Source: a virus (taxonomy: Duplodnaviria; Caudoviricetes). From it: a stretch of 64,000 bases of DNA. The stretch is from IMG/VR virus record IMGVR_UViG_3300035182_001152; one strand, 5' to 3'. The position numbers were made by a program, and so were the translations under genes. Under the pieces are notes generated by a model. That model was not told where the DNA came from and did no database searches. It saw nothing but the letters and a program-made list of their open reading frames with translations. Within the stretch, counting starts at the first letter, position 1. Each line of letters starts with the position of its first letter. Shown here in pieces: positions 226-39,457 of this stretch.

Positions 226-1122
226 ATGAAATACATCCTTGTTCGCCAAGGAGGTAATCGTGCTTCTGCCTTCTCAGACATCGTTGAGCAGGTCAATTAT
301 CAAGACGTACCCCAGGTTGGCTTCTACACGCAAGTAGCACCGAGTATGCGGTTAATTCGTAACCGCACTACCGACAATCACGATTCCCCCTTTGCGATTG
401 CCCGATTCCACGTCGACCCAGCACTGAAGGTCCAGCCTCCGTCACACTTTCGTCGAATTGACATGAGGGCTGTCGAACGGATGATGACAAACCACAAGTA
501 CGTGATATACGGTGTCGTCAATCCAACTCACCACGTAATTGATCACACAGTCCTTGACGGTGCTGTGTACGTCGCGCGGGATGCTGACGGTAAGTTGATC
601 AATGCCCAAACAGGAGATGTCCTTGGTGACTCCAAGGTAACGTTTATGACGGTGTTCTTTGCGTTTGTGCGCGTCAAGGGGTTGCCGATCTATCTGATGG
701 TACTCAATCCAAATCTACTCAGTGCGACGGATGGGTTTGATTGTTATCACGAAGAAACGGACACCAAGTGGATCATGTTGCCGGAACGTGACAACGCGCT
801 GATCGAGCGAGTGTTTACGCCGCAAATATATGACGGCACGTTGATTGGTAATGTGATTGTGCGCGATGAGGGTGATGGACAGCCGATGATCCAACTGTTC
901 AACGATCCATGCGGCATCCTGTACGACGAAAAGCACCTTCGCTCTGATGTGTTCATTAACGGTGTCGCAACGATTGATACCAATCTAAGCGTGTTTACAA
1001 TGGACGGCGCTGTCCGCATTAGCAGTCAAGGCCGTGGGTACGTTCGAATTGTATTTGACCTTGGTGACTACTTCAATCTGTCACGGACCGAACACCCTGC
1101 ACTGGAGTACGTCGTACTATGA
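226..1122 (+). CDS. Hypothetical protein in rSAM operon (298 aa)
   Basis: Long ORF, ATGA overlap with next gene; no family recognised. Confidence 0.8.
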   Translation: MKYILVRQGGNRASAFSDIVEQVNYQDVPQVGFYTQVAPSMRLIRNRTTDNHDSPFAIARFHVDPALKVQPPSHFRRIDMRAVERMMTNHKYVIYGVVNPTHHVIDHTVLDGAVYVARDADGKLINAQTGDVLGDSKVTFMTVFFAFVRVKGLPIYLMVLNPNLLSATDGFDCYHEETDTKWIMLPERDNALIERVFTPQIYDGTLIGNVIVRDEGDGQPMIQLFNDPCGILYDEKHLRSDVFINGVATIDTNLSVFTMDGAVRISSQGRGYVRIVFDLGDYFNLSRTEHPALEYVVL

Positions 1123-17676: not shown

Positions 17677-18411
17677 ATGACACAGTACTACACCTATGTT
17701 CTAACCAATTCTCTAGATGGTCAACCGTTTTATGTGGGTGAGGGCTCCGGAAGTCGGATGTACCAGCACTTACGTGAAGCTGAACGGCAAGACACAACCA
17801 AACGTAGCGTCCACTACAAAATTCTCAGCCTTAAAGAGAAGGGCGGCCACGTCATCTACGCGAAGGTGGAGTGGGAAACAGAGCAGCAAGCATTTGACGA
17901 GGAGAAGCGCCTAATTGCATTGCATGGTCGTAAGGATCTCGGAACCGGACCACTGTGCAACCTAACTGACGGCGGTGAAGGCGCTCAACGTAGTCGGGAA
18001 AGTGTTGAGCGAACAGCCGCTGCACATCGCGGCATGAAACGATCAACAGAAACAAAATTGCGGATGAAGGAAGCGCAACTCCAGGTAGCTGCAAAGTGCC
18101 GTGAACAGTGGGGGATCGGAAAAAGTCCAGAGTCTGAGCAGAAGCGCGTGGCTAAACGCAAAGATGTTCCGTGGAGCGAGAATGCAAGGAATGTAAAGCG
18201 AGAAAAGCCTACGGCCATCCCGGTACAGGCATTCAAAAAGGATACAGGCGAATTAGTCGGTGAATGGGAATCTATGGCTCTGTGCGCCAAGGAGTTGAAT
18301 TGCGACCTAGCTGCCATATGGAAGATTTTGTCAGGATTTATGTCGAAAGCACCCGACGGTACGATGCGTCCGTATAAATCCCACAAAGGCTACACCTTTA
18401 GGTACAAATAA
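17677..18411 (+). mobile_element. Free-standing GIY-YIG homing endonuclease with NUMOD-like C-terminus
   Basis: YTYVL..PFYVGEGSGSRMYQH, EKRLI, LCNLTDGGEG; TATAAATA at 17648. Confidence 0.85.
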
Positions 18412-18438: not shown

Positions 18439-19506
18439 TTAGCGTAGTCCGCCTGGTATTCCTTTGGATACTACCGCGGTCGCACTCCAGGGATGGAGGC
18501 TCTCGAGGTGCTCCGTCACGATCGAGAAGTCGCTGATCTTACCCTCGTCGTATATTGCGTCAAGGCCTTGGTACATTAGACGCGATGCATCTTCTGTGAA
18601 CAGAAGATTGGAACCATTCAGTTCAGCGAACGCCTGCTCATCACGACGCTTGCAAATGATCACAACTTCCGTGGGGATTTGCTTGCGAGCCATCTCAATG
18701 ATGTCTTCAATGTACACAATGTGCTTTTCTGGATTGAACTGCACGGTGATCTTTGCAATCGAACGTTGACTGTGGCCATTCGCCGCTTGACCACGCTTGA
18801 GTGTTGCGTCTTGTGCAAGCTCAAACGAGCACGGGCATGTTGATGAGTACACGTAGTTGACTGTCAGGAAGAACGTATACACGCCGCTGTGAGATTGCGC
18901 TTCCAAAACGCAGTCATAGAAGATGTGACCGATTGCCTTTTTGTGACTGAGATACACGCCTTCTACTTCCTTGAAGAAGTCAGGGCTTGCCTTCAGAGCT
19001 TCAACGCTACCGAAGTCTTCCACCTTCAGGTCTTGGCGGGTACGGAGAGCCTCCTGTGTCCACGGATACTTGAACCGCAGCTTACAGTAGGTGCTGTTGC
19101 TGCCCTGCTTAGCCTGCAGCTTGTTCAGCACGCCCTTGAGGCCATCAATCGATAGGTGGCCGGCAATTTCCTCGTGCATGACAATTGGGAATCGCGACAG
19201 GTTCAGACCCTTTGCGTTCGGGTTGTCAAGTGAACCATACAGTGATGCCTCGGCTTGCAGCTCTTGAACTGTGCCATCGCGGCGCAGGAACTTGATCGGG
19301 AGATGTACGCCATTCACACCAACCTTGTCCAATTGAACGCGGAGGCCCGGAATGAACGGATCGATCTGTGGATCGGGTAGGTCAGCATCCTCAGGATAGT
19401 AGTCCGCATCGTACTGAAACTTCAGATGCGGCATGTGCTGTGTGTAGTCGTTGAAGCGGAACCGACGACCACGCACGACGTTCCCTAGATATTGTTCTTG
19501 TGACAT
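18439..19506 (-). CDS. folE2: GTP cyclohydrolase IB
   Basis: KGLNLSRF, STCPCS, HSQRS, FTED, ESLHPWSA motifs. Confidence 0.9.
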   Translation of the reverse strand: MSQEQYLGNVVRGRRFRFNDYTQHMPHLKFQYDADYYPEDADLPDPQIDPFIPGLRVQLDKVGVNGVHLPIKFLRRDGTVQELQAEASLYGSLDNPNAKGLNLSRFPIVMHEEIAGHLSIDGLKGVLNKLQAKQGSNSTYCKLRFKYPWTQEALRTRQDLKVEDFGSVEALKASPDFFKEVEGVYLSHKKAIGHIFYDCVLEAQSHSGVYTFFLTVNYVYSSTCPCSFELAQDATLKRGQAANGHSQRSIAKITVQFNPEKHIVYIEDIIEMARKQIPTEVVIICKRRDEQAFAELNGSNLLFTEDASRLMYQGLDAIYDEGKISDFSIVTEHLESLHPWSATAVVSKGIPGGLR

Positions 19507-19517
19507 TAGTTCTCCTG

Positions 19518-20078
19518 TTATTGGTTATTGACGGTGTACGTCACAGCGCTGACACGCACTTGGAGGTCAGCCCCGTCAATTACGACCCACTTGTCGTTTG
19601 TGGTCATTACTGTTGTGTATTGACGCATGCATGCGTCAACCATCCAGCTGTAGTGTTTGTTAATTGCCCGGACGCCATCATCAACCGGCTGAAAGTGGCC
19701 AGCTGTCAGATAGAACACGTGATCATACGTCCGTTGTGCCTCTGCACAACGGTGATAGTACTCATCCAGCCAGTTACTGTATTCGTTATCCTTGCCAATT
19801 GCAACGAGAGCGTATACAAACAGGTCTGCGTAAGTGCGTTCCGTGACGTACACTTCTGAGCTGTTAACAGCGTCCCGTTCGTCTTCAATCTTGCGCTTCA
19901 GCACTTCTTCTTGAAAGCGGATTGTCAGCGGCCGATCGTTGTTCACTTGTGAGAGTGTCACCCCCCAATCTGACAGAATTGATCGCGACGTTTTGCGCGT
20001 GATTGACTTGTACGGGAGTGCGTTGATCAGGGTCGACTTCCCAGTGCCCTGACTACCACTTACAGCGATTAGAGACAT
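19518..20078 (-). CDS. P-loop NTPase / nucleotide kinase-like
   Basis: GSQGTGKST Walker A; TERTYAD. Confidence 0.8.
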   Translation of the reverse strand: MSLIAVSGSQGTGKSTLINALPYKSITRKTSRSILSDWGVTLSQVNNDRPLTIRFQEEVLKRKIEDERDAVNSSEVYVTERTYADLFVYALVAIGKDNEYSNWLDEYYHRCAEAQRTYDHVFYLTAGHFQPVDDGVRAINKHYSWMVDACMRQYTTVMTTNDKWVVIDGADLQVRVSAVTYTVNNQ

Positions 20079-20149
20079 GTAGTGCGTCTTTCTTATTGTA
20101 GATGTTTATATATGGTAGCACCGGTTTCGATGACCTGTCAACGGAAACG

Positions 20150-20177
20150 AAAAAGGACCCTCCAGGGTCCTTTTTTT
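20150..20177. terminator. Intrinsic terminator
   Basis: AAAAAGGACCCT-cc-AGGGTCCTTTTTTT. Confidence 0.75.
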
Positions 20178-20396
20178 GAGAGGTGGGAGGTGATAGTCAA
20201 CAGGGATGATTGGTGTACAACGTACAACCTTCAATCCAACAAGTAGAGGTCTTTGGCTGTTGACGTATCCAACAATTGTGACAAACATCTAATACTAACG
20301 TCAACACACAATTTGACCGATGTCCGTTGCTTAGCGTTTGTGGCACTAAACGAGTAGTCAATCATGTATTGTCCAGAGCACCTCACCACACAATTC

Positions 20397-20993
20397 TTAT
20401 GCAACGATCCCTTCGTTGCGGAGGATCTCAACAACATCATCACTCAGGCGGATCATGTTGTTGAGATCGGAGTTTGCGGCAGTCAGCTGTTCCTCGATCG
20501 ACTCGATGTTCAGCTGGGCTTCTTTGATCGCCTTCTCGGTGGTGGCTACCGTTTCTGCGTCGAGCAGTTTGACGGTGACCGTGCCAGACAGGTAACCAAT
20601 TTGGCCGGATGAACGGCTGGCGCGAGCCTGTGCAACGATTGCAGCGGGGCTGAGGTCGTTGTGACTGCGACCTGCCGCTGCCGACGCGATTGCGCGCAAC
20701 TGGGCTGCGATGTCAAGAGCCAACTTTCGCTGGGCGACGAGCTCATCAACGGTTTCGCGGTTGGCGACGCTGATCTGCTCACGGATCTCGTAGCGAACAG
20801 TAGCCAACAGACCTCGACGTTGGATTTGCTGGCTGAGCTTGTTCCGTAGAACATCCAACAGTGCAGCAACTTCTTGTTCAGTCTCAGGGACTTCCCACAC
20901 GCTGAGGGCGGCGGTTGCATCAACTGACACATCACTGAGGGCTGCGTTTAGCTTTTCAACAATCTTGTGTGCTTGGCGGAGTGTGAATTGCAT
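20397..20993 (-). CDS. Hypothetical helical/coiled-coil protein
   Basis: AAGGA RBS; TTGACT-17-GATGAT upstream. Confidence 0.7.
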   Translation of the reverse strand: MQFTLRQAHKIVEKLNAALSDVSVDATAALSVWEVPETEQEVAALLDVLRNKLSQQIQRRGLLATVRYEIREQISVANRETVDELVAQRKLALDIAAQLRAIASAAAGRSHNDLSPAAIVAQARASRSSGQIGYLSGTVTVKLLDAETVATTEKAIKEAQLNIESIEEQLTAANSDLNNMIRLSDDVVEILRNEGIVA

Positions 20994-21059
20994 GGTGATT
21001 CCTTCAATTTGATGAACGAATCATCCCTAAACAGGTCAATCAAGTCAACAGTCTCAGGG

Positions 21060-21416
21060 TCAATCGTCTGTGCCAGCAAACCCAACCCCACCAACAACCC
21101 CGCCAACGGTCATTTCCGGCTCTTGAACTTCCCACTTGATTGCAACTAGAGCTTTGTTGAGGGCTTCATCAACGTCACCGGCAGTGATCGTCATCTCCAC
21201 GTCATCTAAATCGTCCGCGTCAACAAGCAGGAAAGAGTTGCCGGCGCCACTGATGGTGCGTGGGATTACTTTGTAGCCGATTTTGTCCAGCGCCTCGATT
21301 TTAGCAGCTCGTTCTGACTCCGCAATAACGCGGAAGCGGTCGTTGCGATCTGAAGTGCTGATGATGTCGTAGGCTGCGTACGTTTCGGTGACACGTCGAG
21401 GAGGGGCTGAGCTCAT
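21060..21416 (-). CDS. Hypothetical protein
   Basis: ATGA-coupled ORF. Confidence 0.6.
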   Translation of the reverse strand: MSSAPPRRVTETYAAYDIISTSDRNDRFRVIAESERAAKIEALDKIGYKVIPRTISGAGNSFLLVDADDLDDVEMTITAGDVDEALNKALVAIKWEVQEPEMTVGGVVGGVGFAGTDD

Positions 21417-21898
21417 TTGTTCTTTTCACAGGGGAAGGTTTCGTGCAAGGACGCAATCATTACAGCCATTGCAGCGGATTGGTCGGTGACGAATCCCTTC
21501 GTCACAACGTTGTAGCGTTCTGTGTGGGCCAGGGTCCATGTCAGTACAGCATCCAACAGTTGCTGGTCAGTTACACGCTCGTCGACGCACCACAAGGAAA
21601 TGTTTCCCTTGTTGTTCGGATCTGCAGAGGCGAGCTGAACGGTCAACGAATGCCCGTCGGACATACCACGAATCTTGCCCATGCAATTTGCAACGGCAAT
21701 GGGGCCAGACATCTCGTCCAATTTGAGCACACCAGAGCACTTCTGGAGGAAGTCATTCTGATTACCAACGTACTGCGTGTGGATTGCAGGGACGGGCTTG
21801 GACGAATGCGGCCACCACGAGTACAACACCGTAAACGCCAGTGCGGCACAGGCAAACCCTGCGGCAACAGTTGTGGCAATTTGTCGTGCGTTGGACAT
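21413..21898 (-). CDS. Rap1a/Tai-like immunity protein with N-terminal TM/signal
   Basis: NDFLQKC..CMGKIRGMSDG..WC..VTDQQL..LHETFPC pattern; hydrophobic N-terminus. Confidence 0.7.
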   Translation of the reverse strand: MSNARQIATTVAAGFACAALAFTVLYSWWPHSSKPVPAIHTQYVGNQNDFLQKCSGVLKLDEMSGPIAVANCMGKIRGMSDGHSLTVQLASADPNNKGNISLWCVDERVTDQQLLDAVLTWTLAHTERYNVVTKGFVTDQSAAMAVMIASLHETFPCEKNK

Positions 21899-21914
21899 GA
21901 TGGCTCCAGAAAGA

Positions 21915-21991
21915 TGGTCGGGGTGAGAGGATTCGAACCTTGGACCCTCTGCTCCCAAAGCAGATGCGCTACCAGGCTGCGCTACACCCCG
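21915..21991 (-). tRNA. tRNA-Pro(UGG)
   Basis: CGGGGTGTAGCGCAGCCTGGTAGCGC..TT TGG GA..GGTTCGAATCC..CCGACCA; canonical cloverleaf with CCA. Confidence 0.95.
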
Positions 21992-22027
21992 AATATGTGA
22001 TCTACTATACTGGATCTTACCGTAAAG

Positions 22028-22435
22028 TCAACAGGCAGTTTTCGTGACTTCAGGCATTTGACCTGGCCTCATGATCATCGTATGGCGCTCACGCGTAGTC
22101 TCATTGTTAGAGTCATCGACGAACACCACAGTATGGTCGAATCGGAACGCCAAGCCGACGTCAGCTTCGCAGATCGTGTAGATTACGACCTTATCGCCGG
22201 GCGAGAAATGGTGGGCGGGAGGACCATTCAGCACAATATCACCCGGCTCACCAGGAATCGCATATGTTTCCCAGTGTTTGCCATTGGCCACATTGTTTAC
22301 GTGGACGAATTCGTACGGCAGGATTCCTGCTGACGCCATCAGGTTTGGATCAATCGAGATACTGCCGACGTAGTTCAGGTCAGCATCTGTCACCGTAGCT
22401 CGGTGAATCTTTGATCGAACAAATGTGCGCTTCAT
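22028..22435 (-). CDS. panD: Aspartate 1-decarboxylase
   Basis: SKIHRATVTDADLNYVGSISID (GS autocleavage), ETYAI, NG..AH..GD. Confidence 0.92.
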   Translation of the reverse strand: MKRTFVRSKIHRATVTDADLNYVGSISIDPNLMASAGILPYEFVHVNNVANGKHWETYAIPGEPGDIVLNGPPAHHFSPGDKVVIYTICEADVGLAFRFDHTVVFVDDSNNETTRERHTMIMRPGQMPEVTKTAC

Positions 22436-22611
22436 TTCGGCCCCGTGCTATTTGTATCTGCCGCCTTTTGTTGAAAGCGCAGCTGGCCAATTTCTGTTGT
22501 CAGACTTTTGACGGCATCCTGCAGAATCTTCATTTGACCGAGGAGTTGCTCCTGGGTCTTAGTGTTCAGTTCGATGGCGGCCTTCAAGCCGGAGATGTCA
22601 GGGAACATCAT
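22432..22611 (-). CDS. Small coiled-coil protein (59 aa, below track cutoff)
   Basis: ATGA overlaps at both ends; MMFPDISGLKAAIELN.. Confidence 0.55.
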   Translation of the reverse strand: MMFPDISGLKAAIELNTKTQEQLLGQMKILQDAVKSLTTEIGQLRFQQKAADTNSTGPK

Positions 22612-22871
22612 TGTGGGGCGGGATCCGTGAGACCGTACAGTTCGCGCCGATCAGCATCGGCTGGCCAGTTGGCCACTACATAGTCGCGATATTCGTACCA
22701 AAATGGAACGCGGTCGCGAAATGCGTATGATGCACGTAGTGTTGGAATTGAAACCTTGATTTCCAGGCGGGCTGGATCATCAATGTAGTACTCCAATGTG
22801 AGCGTTCCACACAGACACGCTTCATATACATCGCGTACGGTGCAAAAGATTTCTGTGTGGTTGTCGTTCAT
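22608..22871 (-). CDS. Hypothetical protein
   Basis: ORF coupled to next gene. Confidence 0.55.
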   Translation of the reverse strand: MNDNHTEIFCTVRDVYEACLCGTLTLEYYIDDPARLEIKVSIPTLRASYAFRDRVPFWYEYRDYVVANWPADADRRELYGLTDPAPQ

Positions 22872-22874
22872 TTG

Positions 22875-23270
22875 GGTGTGTATTTGGTATGCTACGGGAT
22901 TGCACCGTAACCATCGACTTAACGACTTTCGCTAGTGGTTCATCCGCTTCAGTTACGTGCATTCGCGGAGCTCTATTCGAGTTCTGTAAGAGTTGACGCA
23001 CAGAGCACGTACTAACTGGCCAACTCTAAACATTGTGCGCACGGGGACTATCGAAATCGCCTTTCACCGCTTTGCAAGCGGCACCATCACCCTTCTGGCT
23101 CGCACGCATTAAAAGCTTGCTGGTATACCAGCAACTTGGTTAGCCCGCATCTCGTTTGAGTCGTATCACTTCTTAGCTGTCGAAGGCTTAACGGCGCTGC
23201 TATTTGGGTTACCAAGCACGTGACACGAGATCGCACCATCACGTACGCACACTAAAGTGCGTTAGCTTTT
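22875..23270 (-). ncRNA. Putative structured ncRNA downstream of tRNA-Ala
   Basis: ORF-free ~400 nt with many helices and a 3' T-arm-like hairpin TACGG-tgcaatc-CCGTA. Confidence 0.5.
23036..23107 (-). tRNA. Non-canonical tRNA-Cys(GCA)-like cloverleaf
   Basis: 7-bp acceptor GCGTGCG/CGTGCGC, D arm CCA..TGG, anticodon loop TTGCAAA, T loop TTCGATA; T-stem has a C-C mismatch, A73. Confidence 0.5.
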
Positions 23271-23272
23271 TG

Positions 23273-23345
23273 TGGAGGATAACGGGATCGAACCGTTGAC
23301 CTCATGCTTGCAAAGCATGTGCTCTCCCAGCTGAGCTAATCCCCC
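23273..23345 (-). tRNA. tRNA-Ala(UGC)
   Basis: GGGGGATTAGCTCAGCTGGGAGAGC..TT TGC AA..GGTTCGATCCC; G3-U70; CCA not encoded. Confidence 0.95.
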
Positions 23346-23351
23346 AGGGGA

Positions 23352-23592
23352 CGGTGGAGGATGGGGCCGCCCATCCTCTATGCTTCGTCGGCTCCGAAGC
23401 ACACCGTGAGTCTCTCATTCTAATACAACGCTTACTGTGGAAGGTTGCCCTTACGCCCGAATGAGTTAGGCCCAAGTCATTATCAGTTCCGTACGTCAGA
23501 CTTGGAATTGAGTACGAGAACATCGGCTTTGGTGTCATCTACCGACGGGGTGGTCAGCTTGCGCTGCTTAACACGAGACTTTCATCTCCACC
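23352..23592 (-). ncRNA. Putative structured ncRNA leading tRNA-Ala
   Basis: Terminal helix GGTGGAG/CTCCACC, at least six internal helices, directly after a sigma70 promoter. Confidence 0.55.
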
Positions 23593-23601
23593 AGTTCGTT
23601 A

Positions 23602-23630
23602 ACTATAACGGTTACCTATTTATCCGTCAA
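23602..23630 (-). promoter_or_regulatory. Sigma70-type promoter TTGACG-17-TATAGT
   Basis: Near-consensus, overlaps 3' end of macro-domain gene. Confidence 0.75.
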
Positions 23631-24116
23631 CGGGTACAAGTCGCAAATAAACACATTGACGTTGTACTGCTGCTGAAGGGTGTCGATCATTGGACCAACG
23701 TTTTCCCACTTCAAGCCGCCAAGCCCGCACCCAACACGAGGCATATACAGGTCCAAATTTGTGCCACGACAAAACGACAGTGTTGCTTCCGCCGCTTTTT
23801 GAATAGCGAGTTGACTTGCATACGCACGGCCGTCCCTACCACAATCTTCTTGCGTGAACATATTGGCAACAAAGATTGAGTTTGGCTCATCAATGTCTGG
23901 ATGCCCCACATTGACAATTTGGCTAAGACCAAGTAGTTCACGCGTCGGACGCTTCCACGCTTTAACCATTGAGTGGTATCGCTCGTAAGCAATCGCCCAT
24001 TTGTTTTTGATCGCAAGAGCCACGCCCGAACCCATCACCCCGCGACTATTGACGCCTTGCCCAACCACACCTCTTACGACCGTAGTAACGTCTTTTTGAA
24101 TGTAGGTTAAGGCCAT
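23616..24116 (-). CDS. Macro domain (ADP-ribose processing) protein
   Basis: GVNSRGVMGSGVALAIK, ANMFTQ, MPRVGCGLGGLKW. Confidence 0.88.
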   Translation of the reverse strand: MALTYIQKDVTTVVRGVVGQGVNSRGVMGSGVALAIKNKWAIAYERYHSMVKAWKRPTRELLGLSQIVNVGHPDIDEPNSIFVANMFTQEDCGRDGRAYASQLAIQKAAEATLSFCRGTNLDLYMPRVGCGLGGLKWENVGPMIDTLQQQYNVNVFICDLYPLTDK

Positions 24117-24117
24117 G

Positions 24118-24486
24118 TTATGTCCGATTGAAGTACATCCGGGCGCCGTTTTCGCTGTCTTCAGACACTTCGATCACCAGCTCACGACCGGGATACGTCT
24201 TTGCGATGTAGTCTGCCAAGTCTTCTGCGATCATTTCGCACGACTTGTGGTTCAGCTGGAGAGTGCCAGATGAGTACAGCGATTCCAGCTCACGCTTCAG
24301 CAGGATGAACTCGACATCACGATTGGTGTGCTTGACTTCCAGCTCGACGCGGAAGTGGAACATATGACGGTGTGGATATCCAAGGAAGCTGACGTCAGCG
24401 AGCAACGGATTGGTAGCAGCGTCGGGATAAAGGTGAACGCCTTCCTTAGCAAACTGTACGAAAATAAATTGTTTATCAGCCTTCAT
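24118..24486 (-). CDS. QueD/PTPS-like T-fold protein
   Basis: EGVH, HRHMFHFRV, SCEMIAEDL, EVSED.ENGA as in phage 6-carboxytetrahydropterin synthase-like proteins. Confidence 0.75.
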   Translation of the reverse strand: MKADKQFIFVQFAKEGVHLYPDAATNPLLADVSFLGYPHRHMFHFRVELEVKHTNRDVEFILLKRELESLYSSGTLQLNHKSCEMIAEDLADYIAKTYPGRELVIEVSEDSENGARMYFNRT

Positions 24487-28008: not shown

Positions 28009-28338
28009 CTATTCAGCTGCGTTGGCCGTTTTGACGTAGTCTTTCGGCCGCATCTTCCCAGCGCGACCTGCTTTGGACCATTCGTAGTCGTGACCGTCCG
28101 GTGTCTTACCGTCAATGATCGATGCAACGCCAAGCTGACCGACGTTGTTCATGTCCTCCGACGCCATGGTGATCATTGAGATACGGGCACCTCCACGACG
28201 ACGTGTGCGCAATTCCTCAGAGAACTTCAGCGCTTGGGCCAGTTCAGACGGGGGGAACTCACGCGACTGAGGTTCACGCACCAACGCTGGTGCTAGTGAG
28301 TCTGTGTAGGACTCTTCAGTCCAGTATACTGTGTACAT
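28009..28338 (-). CDS. Hypothetical protein
   Basis: AAGGA RBS; ORF. Confidence 0.65.
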   Translation of the reverse strand: MYTVYWTEESYTDSLAPALVREPQSREFPPSELAQALKFSEELRTRRRGGARISMITMASEDMNNVGQLGVASIIDGKTPDGHDYEWSKAGRAGKMRPKDYVKTANAAE

Positions 28339-28409
28339 TTTGTTCCTTGTGCAATTGCGGCATGATCATCGCAATTGGCACAAAGATCAACAGCAATAAA
28401 CCGACATGA

Positions 28410-28608
28410 GGGGCCTTGAGGTTTCTTTTGGCGTTCCCTCTACACACTACATTCGCCCGCGCGCTGGGTTACTAGCACCAAGTGCAGCTAGTTCTCACGA
28501 TACTAGCCTGTCTAAATTTGGATGTCGAGCACGGAGGCTTCGTCTCGACGCGCCTGTTAACACTCTCAAGCTCGAGAGGGGCTCGAACGGTTTCGAGCGG
28601 CTCCACCA
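28410..28608. ncRNA. Structured element with tmRNA/tRNA-Ala-like termini
   Basis: + strand begins GGGGCC and ends GGGGCTCGAACGGTTTCGAGCGGCTCCACCA; multiple hairpins; minus-strand promoter at 28668-28639. Confidence 0.45.
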
Positions 28609-28635
28609 ACTGAGTTGCTTGCACATTTCAGTGAG

Positions 28636-29481
28636 TTAACTATCAGTCTCACCCAATTTTTTCGTCAACGGCGTCATCTTAAACACAGACTTGGGTTTGG
28701 AGCCGGGTACGTCTCGCCACCCCTCATCGATTAGGCGATCGTACAGCCCTTCGTTCAGGATGCTCTCAACGTACGTGCACCGGAATGGGTTGATCTGATG
28801 CATATGGTTGATTACCCGCATGCCAAGACCTCGGCCTCTGAATTGCTCAGAGACTGTAATTGTACCAATGTCAAAGGATTGGATCAATGCGCCTGAGATC
28901 GCATGATGAGCCTTACGGGTATACACACTGATGATGTCGTCTCCATATACCCAATGGTTAGGATATGGTCCATCAAGGAATCCCTGGATCTCCTGCTTGA
29001 ACGAAGTAAACGCCTGGTTACAGACGTCTACGCAATTTCGCTCAAATAAGGCCAGGTCTGACATGTCACACCAGGCGGCTACGATTGCATTCACGTAGTG
29101 AAGATTGCTCTCCGCCACGAGGCCATTGCTGTTGCTGTTGGAGCGAGCAGCATCAACGATGTTCTTCGCTTCTTTCAGGCCAAGCTTGGTGTTCTCACGG
29201 ACCATCTTGATCGCCGAGATGAGCCCACCACTGCGGAGCAGGCTGGCGACATCGCCAGCCCACCTTGGGTCAGCGGGTGCGGTCTTCGTCACGACGCCGG
29301 CGTCGTGCAGTTGGACGAAGATTGCCGGATGCTTTTTGGCAAGAGCCAAGGCAATCGCATGAGAGTCGTAGTTGCCTGATGCAATGATGTCGACGATGCG
29401 CTCATGAACCTCGTTGGAGGTTGACGTGGGCGTCGGCTGCAGAGAGATGCGACGTTGAGATTGCTGTTGTTGCTTGGACAT
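28636..29481 (-). CDS. Ribosomal L7/L12 CTD-like domain fused to GNAT-like domain
   Basis: SAIKMVRENTKLGLKEAKNIVD; ITVSEQFRGRGLG acetyl-CoA motif. Confidence 0.7.
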   Translation of the reverse strand: MSKQQQQSQRRISLQPTPTSTSNEVHERIVDIIASGNYDSHAIALALAKKHPAIFVQLHDAGVVTKTAPADPRWAGDVASLLRSGGLISAIKMVRENTKLGLKEAKNIVDAARSNSNSNGLVAESNLHYVNAIVAAWCDMSDLALFERNCVDVCNQAFTSFKQEIQGFLDGPYPNHWVYGDDIISVYTRKAHHAISGALIQSFDIGTITVSEQFRGRGLGMRVINHMHQINPFRCTYVESILNEGLYDRLIDEGWRDVPGSKPKSVFKMTPLTKKLGETDS

Positions 29482-38129: not shown

Positions 38130-38700
38130 TGTTGATGAAAATTGTTCGGACATTGCCCATTAGGCAATCTGCGAACAACTTAGAAGCAACGGTGAGGATT
38201 CGGCTCACCGCCACCTATTTTCAAAACCCCTACCACCGATCTGGCGCACCTTTGTGGCGTGCTGGGCGTTTCCCGACGACCGTACCGTCGTTGATAAATC
38301 TCTGCGTCATTGCTAGGGCGTACGTGCTTTAGCAATCAGAGGATGTCCGAGTATGTGTTCTCCTAAGGCGTAAACTACTCGCAGTGTCAGTAATATGTGT
38401 GGGTGGAGTCCCAGGCCCTCTCACGCTACGGAATCGACCGTATGCCCTGACATATTACCAAGACAGCAAGGCGGGATATGCACCCGCTCCCATACTCTCA
38501 GAGTCTCCACCAGTCCCAGATACGACATCTTCTCTGGGGTTAGACCAACGACGTAGTGGCCACTACAATCTGTCAGTCGGCGACCGATCACCTTCAAGGG
38601 CCCGATCGGCTAGGACCTATCTTCCAAAGAGCAACCCCAACCACGAGGATCTGCTTCACTCAACCTCGCAGTTTTACGTGCAACGTTTCGTTCAACCGAT
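38130..38700 (-). ncRNA. Putative large (~570 nt) ornate ncRNA
   Basis: No credible minus ORF; more than 12 helices incl. long-range and pseudoknot-like pairings; promoter TTGCGT-17-TAGAAT at 38735-38707. Confidence 0.55.
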
Positions 38701-38960: not shown

Positions 38961-39139
38961 TTGCACACCTTTTGCACCACGTATGCTGCCGCAAATCCGA
39001 CAGCAAGATACGGAGCGAGGTGAATGATCAGGGCGCCGATTGTGGCGAGAATTCCAACGCCAAATACGAACGCAGGGAGAAGGCACACCACTGCGAGAGT
39101 GGTCAGCACAGCAACAAGGGCAATCTTCAGAGGAGTCAT
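38957..39139 (-). CDS. Small membrane protein
   Basis: Hydrophobic 60 aa. Confidence 0.55.
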   Translation of the reverse strand: MTPLKIALVAVLTTLAVVCLLPAFVFGVGILATIGALIIHLAPYLAVGFAAAYVVQKVCK

Positions 39140-39190
39140 TTTACGTCACCAGTTACACAAAGTACTGATATCGTATAGGTCACCCTGTTA

Positions 39191-39457
39191 TTACGCAACA
39201 GCTGCCGGTACAGTTGGCACAGCGGAGGACGACCTGATCATCTTCCACTCTTCGAACTTCTTGCCTTCCGGCTCGACAGTGAACGACAGCACAACATTCT
39301 TGTTGTCAAGTGGTCGCCACTGCTTGATCCCTGTCAGTTTGTGGCACTTGCCATCAATCTCAACCAGAATGTCTAGATCGGGATGACAGATCCCAAATTG
39401 GTGTTGCAGTGTGCCGATTGTTGCGCCGTCCGGCCAGTCGACTAATTGAATTGTCAT
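39191..39457 (-). CDS. Hypothetical protein
   Basis: GGAGG RBS. Confidence 0.6.
   Translation of the reverse strand: MTIQLVDWPDGATIGTLQHQFGICHPDLDILVEIDGKCHKLTGIKQWRPLDNKNVVLSFTVEPEGKKFEEWKMIRSSSAVPTVPAAVA

What the first reader, a model, noticed from the sequence alone, without database searches (positions are those of the whole stretch)
23352..23630. ~240-nt promoter-driven RNA with a 7-bp acceptor-like closing helix and an internal triple-stop mini-ORF
Seen: TTGACG-17-TATAGT, then GGTGGAG...CTCCACC closing a domain with hairpins (CAGC-gcaa-GCTG, CCAAGTC/GACTTGG, CTCATTC/GAATGAG, GATGGG/CCCATC). Inside is a frame reading ADVLVLNSKSDVRN followed by TGA TAA TGA within a helix, reminiscent of a tmRNA tag region, but without G3-U70 or a canonical T loop. 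Inference: an unclassified tmRNA-like or tRNA-mimic RNA co-transcribed with tRNA-Ala.
Basis: partly seen in the sequence, partly recalled or inferred. Interest (0 to 1): 0.64.

Follow-up and report, generated by a model that had tools for sequence, protein, structure and literature searches.

The report
Tandem-pseudoknot RNA of large phages
This stretch is not a ribosome-rescue RNA but a member of an uncatalogued family of small, knotted RNAs that many large bacterial viruses keep beside their tRNA genes; its shape is well supported, but its job is not yet known.

Summary
The promoter, hairpins and triple stop are present on the minus strand of a large phage genome, upstream of tRNA-Ala. The tmRNA reading fails: ARAGORN and Rfam find no tmRNA, the 'tag' frame survives in only 15 of 73 homologues, and the 7-bp closing helix is absent from the two closest relatives.

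The real feature is a ~107-nt RNA at 23516-23410. It has a 45-nt H-type pseudoknot (99.5% of cells paired in 69 sequences, 9 of 15 pairs with compensatory change), followed by a second pseudoknotted domain (four covarying helices). Seventy-three distinct homologues were found in viral and metagenomic contigs, plus the cultured phages Xoo-sp13 and RP13. It was single-copy in 5 of 5 genomes searched, is non-coding, and lies within 300 nt of a same-strand tRNA in 33 of 73 loci. No partner gene is conserved and no bacterial chromosomal copy was found. It is absent from Rfam 15, and the scan had not found it on other DNA.

In this phage it is flanked by two further modules. Likely mechanism (inferred, ~45%): a stable RNA cut from the pre-tRNA, whose conserved triple-helix core binds a ligand or protein in trans.

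The parts
23602..23630 (-). sigma70-type promoter overlapping the end of the macro-domain gene; its spacer holds an ATAAATA box resembling a T4-type late promoter (inference)
   Evidence: same arrangement in L097, L098, L099, L101, L104
23522..23597 (-). Module Z: local helix 23592-23588 with 23553-23549 enclosing a GAAA and a GCAA tetraloop hairpin; pseudoknot 23574-23569 with 23537-23532; helix 23546-23541 with 23527-23522
   Evidence: read by hand from three sequences (window, L098, L104), each helix kept with different bases; low sample, not formally scored
23472..23516 (-). Core H-type pseudoknot: P1 23516-23509 with 23498-23490 (8 bp, bulged C at 23495), loop 1 AUU, P2 23505-23499 with 23478-23472 (7 bp), loop 3 ending UAAU
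   Evidence: 69 distinct sequences, 99.5% of cells paired, 4 of 8 P1 pairs and 5 of 7 P2 pairs with changes on both sides, 0 of 500 shuffles reach the covariation score; CM 67 bits, single copy in the window
23410..23471 (-). Domain 2, type A: P3 23471-23468 with 23458-23455; P4 23465-23459 with 23420-23414; P5 23448-23441 with 23433-23425 (bulged C); P6 loop-to-3'-end pairing, reduced to about 3 bp in this copy (5-8 bp in homologues)
   Evidence: 21 sequences; RNAalifold recovers P2, P3, P5; all four helices with compensatory change, 93.7% of cells paired
23477..23527 (-).
   Evidence: in frame in 25 of 73, stop inside the core in 25 of 73, intact in 15 of 73
23352..23406 (-). Module C: predicted three-way junction (closing helix 23406-23402 with 23356-23352, 7-bp and 9-bp hairpins) whose loops could kiss through 4 bp; seen only in this phage
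   Evidence: -32.7 kcal/mol fold; no homologue among fetched loci; unverified
23272..23345 (-). tRNA-Ala(UGC), starting 6 nt after module C
   Evidence: ARAGORN, Rfam RF00005 67.3 bits
23616..24116 (-). Upstream macro-domain gene, used only as a synteny anchor; not a conserved partner of the RNA
   Evidence: PF01661; next to the RNA in 5 of 73 loci, four of them from the window's own syntenic lineage

Best explanation
A member of a phage-specific family of ~105-125-nt non-coding RNAs made of two stacked pseudoknots. SHOWN by comparison: the secondary structure, the phage distribution, one copy per genome where tested, non-coding status, same-strand linkage to tRNA clusters, and the lack of a partner or downstream regulated gene. 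INFERRED: (1) It is transcribed from the sigma70-type promoter with tRNA-Ala. (2) Host RNase P cutting the tRNA 5' end, and tRNA 3'-trimming where a tRNA lies upstream, release it as a separate RNA. (3) Domain 2, whose last helix buries the 3' end, protects it from 3' exonucleases. (4) The core folds into a triple-helical pseudoknot (loop 1 in the P2 major groove, UAAU in the P1 minor groove) with a flipped C, and this nearly invariant surface binds something conserved across hosts, a small molecule or a universal protein. It would act in trans as an aptamer-like sponge or decoy. Structure and family about 95% sure; processing about 70%; trans binding function about 45%.
For: Covariation of all six helices. 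Unpaired or junction bases are nearly invariant while outer pairs vary: bulge C 72 of 73, loop 1 AUU 72 of 73, UAAU 61 of 73. These counts are partly fixed by the search patterns, but the scan that freed loop 1, the bulge and the inner P1 pairs returned mostly canonical copies, with three variants. Same-strand tRNA within 300 nt in 33 of 73 loci versus 0 of 73 on the opposite strand and 2.2% of control positions. In 15 loci the next tRNA starts 56-77 nt after the core, a few bases after domain 2; in L120 and L226 the unit fills the whole gap between two tRNAs. One copy in each of five 177-336 kb genomes. No conserved neighbour except homing-endonuclease-like ORFs. Only 3 of 73 lie inside an ORF of 100 aa or more. 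Found in phages of Xanthomonas and Ralstonia and in metagenomic phage contigs of 235-379 kb. Precedent for stable unexplained RNAs in a phage tRNA cluster: T4 rnaC and rnaD (PMC9697503).
Against: No expression, processing or binding data exist here. The invariant bases could be purely structural (base triples), needing no ligand. No ligand or protein candidate emerges from gene context. The family is patchy: absent from PA5oct, XacN1, Phosso, RAS14 and BCSR5 and from close relatives L097 and L101, so it is dispensable. Related sequences inflate covariation counts.
Confidence: 0.45

Rival explanations
1. A new class of small self-cleaving ribozyme that cuts the polycistronic pre-tRNA transcript, as theta ribozymes do; the bulged C would be the general acid.
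For: Compact multi-pseudoknot fold with invariant core bases and a conserved bulged C; tRNA-cluster location; theta ribozymes set a precedent in phages (PMC10879173).
Against: The distance from an upstream tRNA 3' end varies (3-18 nt in 8 loci, far larger or absent in most), whereas theta ribozymes cut within 5 nt. One copy per genome despite up to ~30 tRNAs. Topology is not the nested HDV fold, and no Rfam ribozyme model matches.
Confidence: 0.2
2. A cis-acting stability or processing element: a rigid pseudoknot rod that blocks 5'-end-dependent nucleases or steers RNase P/E on the adjacent pre-tRNA, in the manner of flaviviral xrRNAs.
For: Often abuts a tRNA 5' end; domain 2 type A has a junction plus loop-to-3'-end pseudoknot loosely like an xrRNA (resemblance from memory, untested); relatives swap different structured modules into the same leader.
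Against: Over half of the loci have no tRNA within 300 nt (some contigs are short); L101 has the same tRNA-Ala with no leader at all; the neighbouring tRNA is of many kinds; single copy.
Confidence: 0.18
3. A mimic of a type III antitoxin (pseudo-ToxI/CptI/TenpI) that titrates a host abortive-infection toxin; a specific version of the decoy idea.
For: Type III antitoxins are H-type pseudoknots in tandem (PMC12283969); phage mimicry of ToxI is known (abstract of PMC3594212); L163 carries a duplicated unit.
Against: No repeat array, no toxin gene nearby, no match to any Rfam family; antitoxins are toxin-specific and diverge, whereas this core is nearly constant across distant hosts.
Confidence: 0.08
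4. A divergent tmRNA or tRNA mimic with a tag reading frame.
For: A 7-bp helix can join the ends in this one sequence (P 0.25-0.62); an Ala-initiated frame ends in three stops.
Against: No ARAGORN or Rfam tmRNA hit; no G3-U70, T loop or CCA after the helix; frame intact in 15 of 73; helix absent in L098 and L104; a true permuted tmRNA coexists in Xoo-sp13.
Confidence: 0.02
5. A disposable tRNA leader with chance hairpins.
For: Overall folding z-score only -2.07; module C has no homologue.
Against: 73 distinct homologues with compensatory changes in six helices.
Confidence: 0.02

Closest known systems
T4 rnaC and rnaD (species 1 and 2 stable RNAs)
   Same: Small non-coding RNAs of 120-140 nt and unknown function in a phage tRNA cluster, directly next to a tRNA (PMC9697503).
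   Different: The core model finds nothing in the T4 region, and no shared motif is visible.
Theta ribozymes (minimal HDV-like)
   Same: Pseudoknotted RNAs beside phage tRNA genes (PMC10879173).
   Different: Nested double pseudoknot with the cut within 5 nt of a tRNA 3' end, mostly in gut phages. Here two tandem pseudoknots with variable spacing, more often just 5' of a tRNA, single copy.
SAM-II riboswitch aptamer
   Same: Classic H-type pseudoknot with a short U-containing loop 1 placed to form triples in the P2 major groove (PMC3303485).
   Different: SAM-II needs an unpaired U (U44) in the P2 3' strand and carries the Shine-Dalgarno sequence. Here P2 is a continuous 7-bp helix (99% paired), no gene is consistently downstream, and no Rfam match was found.
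Type III antitoxin RNAs (ToxI, CptI, TenpI)
   Same: Tandem H-type pseudoknots with A-rich loop 3 (PMC12283969).
   Different: No repeat array, no terminator-toxin operon, and the two pseudoknots are dissimilar.
GOLLD and ROOL large phage RNAs
   Same: Ornate, pseudoknotted RNAs of unknown function (PMC12286853); their link to phage tRNA genes is from my own knowledge.
   Different: Several times larger (own knowledge); no Rfam match at E 10 or better.
tmRNA (standard and permuted)
   Same: Multiple pseudoknots; found in large phages (Xoo-sp13).
   Different: No tRNA-like domain, no conserved tag frame, no model match.

Membership tests
tmRNA | Match to tmRNA models (ARAGORN; Rfam standard and permuted) | tested here: not met
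   the permuted model did detect a real tmRNA in L237, so the test is sensitive
tmRNA | Acceptor stem with G3-U70, T arm and 3' CCA | tested here: not met
   third pair is U-A, no T loop, no CCA after the helix; helix not conserved
tmRNA | Conserved internal tag reading frame | tested here: not met
   intact in 15 of 73 homologues
tmRNA | Alanylation, SmpB binding, peptide tagging | not testable with these tools
   needs experiment
RNase P RNA, 6S RNA, SRP RNA | Rfam covariance-model match | tested here: not met
   no hit up to E 10 in 22400-23700; none over the motif in 11 motif-bearing loci
Theta / HDV-like ribozyme | Nested double pseudoknot with P3 and P1.1 between P2 and P1 | tested here: not met
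   no nucleotides separate the P2 5' strand from the P1 3' strand
Theta / HDV-like ribozyme | 5' end within 5 nt of a tRNA 3' end | tested here: not met
   1 of 73 loci at 5 nt or less; 8 at 3-18 nt
Self-cleaving ribozymes (any class) | Self-cleavage in vitro | not testable with these tools
   needs experiment
SAM-II riboswitch | H-type pseudoknot with short U-containing loop 1 | tested here: met
SAM-II riboswitch | Unpaired U in the P2 3' strand forming the SAM pocket | tested here: not met
   P2 continuous, 99% paired; feature described in PMC3303485
Riboswitches in general | Consistent position 5' of functionally related genes | tested here: not met
   no common downstream gene
Type III antitoxin | Repeat array between promoter and terminator, upstream of a ToxN-like gene | tested here: not met
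   single unit, followed by tRNA; no shared neighbouring protein
Phage tRNA-cluster stable RNAs (T4 rnaC/rnaD kind) | Non-coding, same strand as and adjacent to phage tRNA genes | tested here: met
Phage tRNA-cluster stable RNAs (T4 rnaC/rnaD kind) | Accumulates as a discrete stable RNA in infected cells | not testable with these tools
   needs Northern blot or end-mapping RNA-seq
Candidate structured RNAs of Fremin et al. 2023 (PMC10690425) | Overlap with one of 8,495 unnamed IMG/VR models | not testable with these tools
   no supplement held; overlap cannot be excluded

The most novel reading that the evidence does not exclude
The core is a new natural aptamer or ribozyme class, and large phages string such compact domains (module Z, core, domain 2, module C) into modular RNA arrays on their tRNA transcripts that soak up a host signal or defence factor in trans.
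Probability: 0.3. Interest if true: 0.88.

Novelty: new variant of a known kind. Interest (0 to 1): 0.66.

Why it matters
Well-supported new RNA folds are rare, and ones with a small, nearly invariant core have often turned out to be riboswitch aptamers or ribozymes (own knowledge). This one appears confined to large phages, spans distant hosts, is short enough to synthesise and crystallise, and sits unannotated in two cultured phages (Xoo-sp13, RP13), so it can be tested directly. It bears on the old open question of what the stable non-tRNA species of phage tRNA clusters do. It also shows that these leaders are built from interchangeable structured modules.

Tried and rejected
Searches that found nothing: Rfam at gathering and E-value thresholds gave only tRNA. 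blastn of the whole region against cultured phages hit only the tRNA, and of the core only chance matches. An exact 17-mer scan gave 12 unrelated matches. No whole genome is held for the window. A scan of one genome for each of 185,579 prokaryote species gave 4 hits: one is a phage-like contig also found in the metagenome scan, and three lack the motif's spacing; only the commonest P1 variant was tested. The core model found nothing in PA5oct, XacN1, Phosso, RAS14, BCSR5 or the T4 tRNA region, and no second copy in the window. A literature search for the motif letters and several topic searches found no description.

Ideas considered from memory and dropped because order or core motifs do not fit: RNase P, permuted group I intron, group II domain V, hammerhead, pistol. 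An automated search for a domain-2 pseudoknot against shuffles was too loose to count as evidence. The idea that the 5' end pairs with the CCA end of tRNA-Ala or tmRNA was dropped because L098 has a mismatch and L104 lacks the sequence. Some local-helix probabilities used wrong offsets and were redone.

Full report
Setting. The window has the gene content of a large phage: FolE2, PanD, a macro domain, SLT, Rap1a-like and HD proteins, and the identical macro gene lies on contigs of up to 174-206 kb. The finding is on the minus strand, between the macro-domain gene (24116-23616) and tRNA-Ala(UGC) at 23345-23272. No whole genome is held.

Observation. The promoter match, the end-to-end 7-bp complementarity, the four hairpins and the 14-codon frame with three stops are all in the sequence. 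Rfam and ARAGORN find only the tRNA, even at E 10. The 248-nt stretch folds a little better than shuffles (z -2.07).

Finding relatives. Homologues of the macro protein led to syntenic loci. Behind a similar promoter, L098 and L104 carry related RNA, L099 carries only a central piece, L097 carries a different module and L101 has no leader at all. Pattern scans with the central piece gave 17 viral and 58 metagenome hits, nearly all with identical spacing. Scans that freed the outer or inner P1 bases added more. After filtering and collapsing at 90% identity there are 73 distinct members. Two cultured phages carry it unannotated: Xanthomonas phage Xoo-sp13 (62 bits) and Ralstonia phage RP13, the latter with an ~80-nt insertion in P2.

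Core structure (shown). Positions 23516-23472 form an H-type pseudoknot. P1 has 8 pairs with one bulged C, loop 1 is AUU, P2 has 7 pairs, no base separates P2 from P1, and loop 3 (mostly 10-11 nt) ends in UAAU. In 69 distinct sequences 99.5% of cells pair, and 4 of 8 P1 pairs and 5 of 7 P2 pairs change on both sides. The covariation score is 0.417, against 0.116 for shuffles and at most 0.10 for slid registers. G-U pairs fit RNA on this strand. The junction pairs and loops are nearly invariant. That is partly built into the patterns, but the scan that freed loop 1, the bulge and the inner P1 pairs returned mostly canonical copies. Relatedness inflates such counts; R-scape was not available.

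Domain 2 (shown). A second pseudoknotted domain follows directly. The window has type A (23471-23410): P3, P4, P5 with a bulged C, and P6 pairing the P5 loop with the 3' end. In 17 aligned copies all four helices show compensatory change (93.7% paired, 23 of 36 pairs over the whole RNA). RNAalifold recovers P2, P3 and P5 unaided, and a parse of 21 copies finds P6 of 5-8 bp in all but the window's copy, which keeps about 3 bp. Other phages have type B, a different double pseudoknot (read by eye, not scored), or a minimal pseudoknot (L099, L108). Profile searches of the fetched loci found types A and B only behind a core.

Flanking modules. Module Z (23597-23522) is shared with L098 and L104; by hand each helix is kept with different bases, but three sequences are few. 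Module C (23406-23352) folds as a tight three-way junction with possible kissing loops and has no known homologue. Unconstrained folding gives that helix P 0.25-0.62, but with the comparative helices in place the local arrangement is 5.5 kcal/mol more stable, and the relatives lack the 3' partner. It may form in this phage but is not a conserved feature.

Why not tmRNA. There is no model match, no G3-U70, no T loop and no CCA after the helix. The tag frame reaches its stops intact in 15 of 73 members; 25 have a stop inside the core, and the double stop is in frame in 25, as chance predicts. Xoo-sp13 has both this RNA and a real permuted tmRNA (65.7 bits).

Context (shown). A same-strand tRNA lies within 300 nt in 33 of 73 loci, an opposite-strand one in none, against 2.2% for control positions. 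In 15 loci a tRNA starts just after domain 2, and in L120 and L226 the unit fills the gap between two tRNAs. Each of five 177-336 kb genomes has one copy. No neighbouring protein is shared by more than 8 of 73 loci, and the commonest look like homing endonucleases. No bacterial chromosomal copy was found with the commonest variant. Five other large cultured phages lack it.

Mechanism (inferred). tRNA processing would release the RNA with a pseudoknot-protected 3' end. One copy per genome, varied neighbouring tRNAs and no linked gene argue for action in trans rather than as a riboswitch or a per-tRNA processing device. A nearly constant core across Xanthomonas, Ralstonia and metagenomic phages points to a conserved partner or to intrinsic chemistry. 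I put an aptamer-like or decoy role at 0.45, a new ribozyme at 0.2, a cis stability element at 0.18 and a type III antitoxin mimic at 0.08. The remainder covers tmRNA, junk and unconsidered functions.

Comparison and novelty. It works like, but is not, a SAM-II-type triple-helix pseudoknot: the unpaired U of the SAM pocket is missing (PMC3303485). It shares its setting with theta ribozymes (PMC10879173) and T4 rnaC/rnaD (PMC9697503) but not their fold, spacing or sequence. It is not in Rfam 15, and no description was found in the paper library. It could be among the 8,495 unnamed IMG/VR models of PMC10690425, which I could not check. Earlier notes of this scan hold no look-alike on other genomes. 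Verdict: a new RNA family within a known broad kind (unexplained structured RNAs of phage tRNA clusters); interest 0.66.

Noticed in passing
window 22880-23270, minus strand: A second non-coding RNA downstream of tRNA-Ala; its 3' ~180 nt is conserved in L097, L098, L099 and L101 (nhmmer E 1e-11 to 1e-22), including relatives that lack the upstream RNA. No meaningful Rfam hit.
   Followed up: partly
L237 293-636 (Xoo-sp13, MN047793 about 39030-39373): Unannotated permuted tmRNA (RF04321, 65.7 bits) and several unannotated tRNAs in this record.
   Followed up: partly
L238 1925-2086 (RP13, LC554890 about 141736-141897): Family member with an ~80-nt insertion inside the P2 5' strand, ending a few bases before tRNA-Leu.
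   Followed up: partly
L097 985-1045 and L098 10706-10768: Another ~62-nt structured module directly before tRNA-Ala, nearly identical in two phages and absent from the window; no exact match in IMG/VR.
   Followed up: partly
L163 about 400-510, minus strand: A duplicated upstream copy of the unit with a different P1 sequence and a G in place of the bulged C.
   Followed up: no
window 23616-23622, minus strand: An (T/A)ATAAATA box inside the promoter spacer, kept in L097, L098, L099 and L104; resembles a T4-type late promoter, suggesting early and late transcription.
   Followed up: no
window 28410-28668 and 38200-38700: Further non-coding, probably structured segments. No meaningful Rfam hit at 28200-28800, and neither holds a copy of the core.
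   Followed up: partly
L099 11158-11167, also L116 and L124 upstream of the core: A recurring GGUGGAGCC word in these non-coding clusters, complementary to tRNA-Ala or tmRNA 3' ends; also at window 28607-28599 on the minus strand.
   Followed up: no
window 17677-18411, plus strand: ORF that looks like a GIY-YIG homing endonuclease, inserted against the local gene direction (by eye, not scanned).
   Followed up: no
window 18439-24486: FolE2 (PF02649), PanD (PF02261), Rap1a-like (PF18602) and an unassigned 122-aa protein common in large phages lie around the tRNA-Ala and tRNA-Pro genes, in conserved order in L098.
   Followed up: partly
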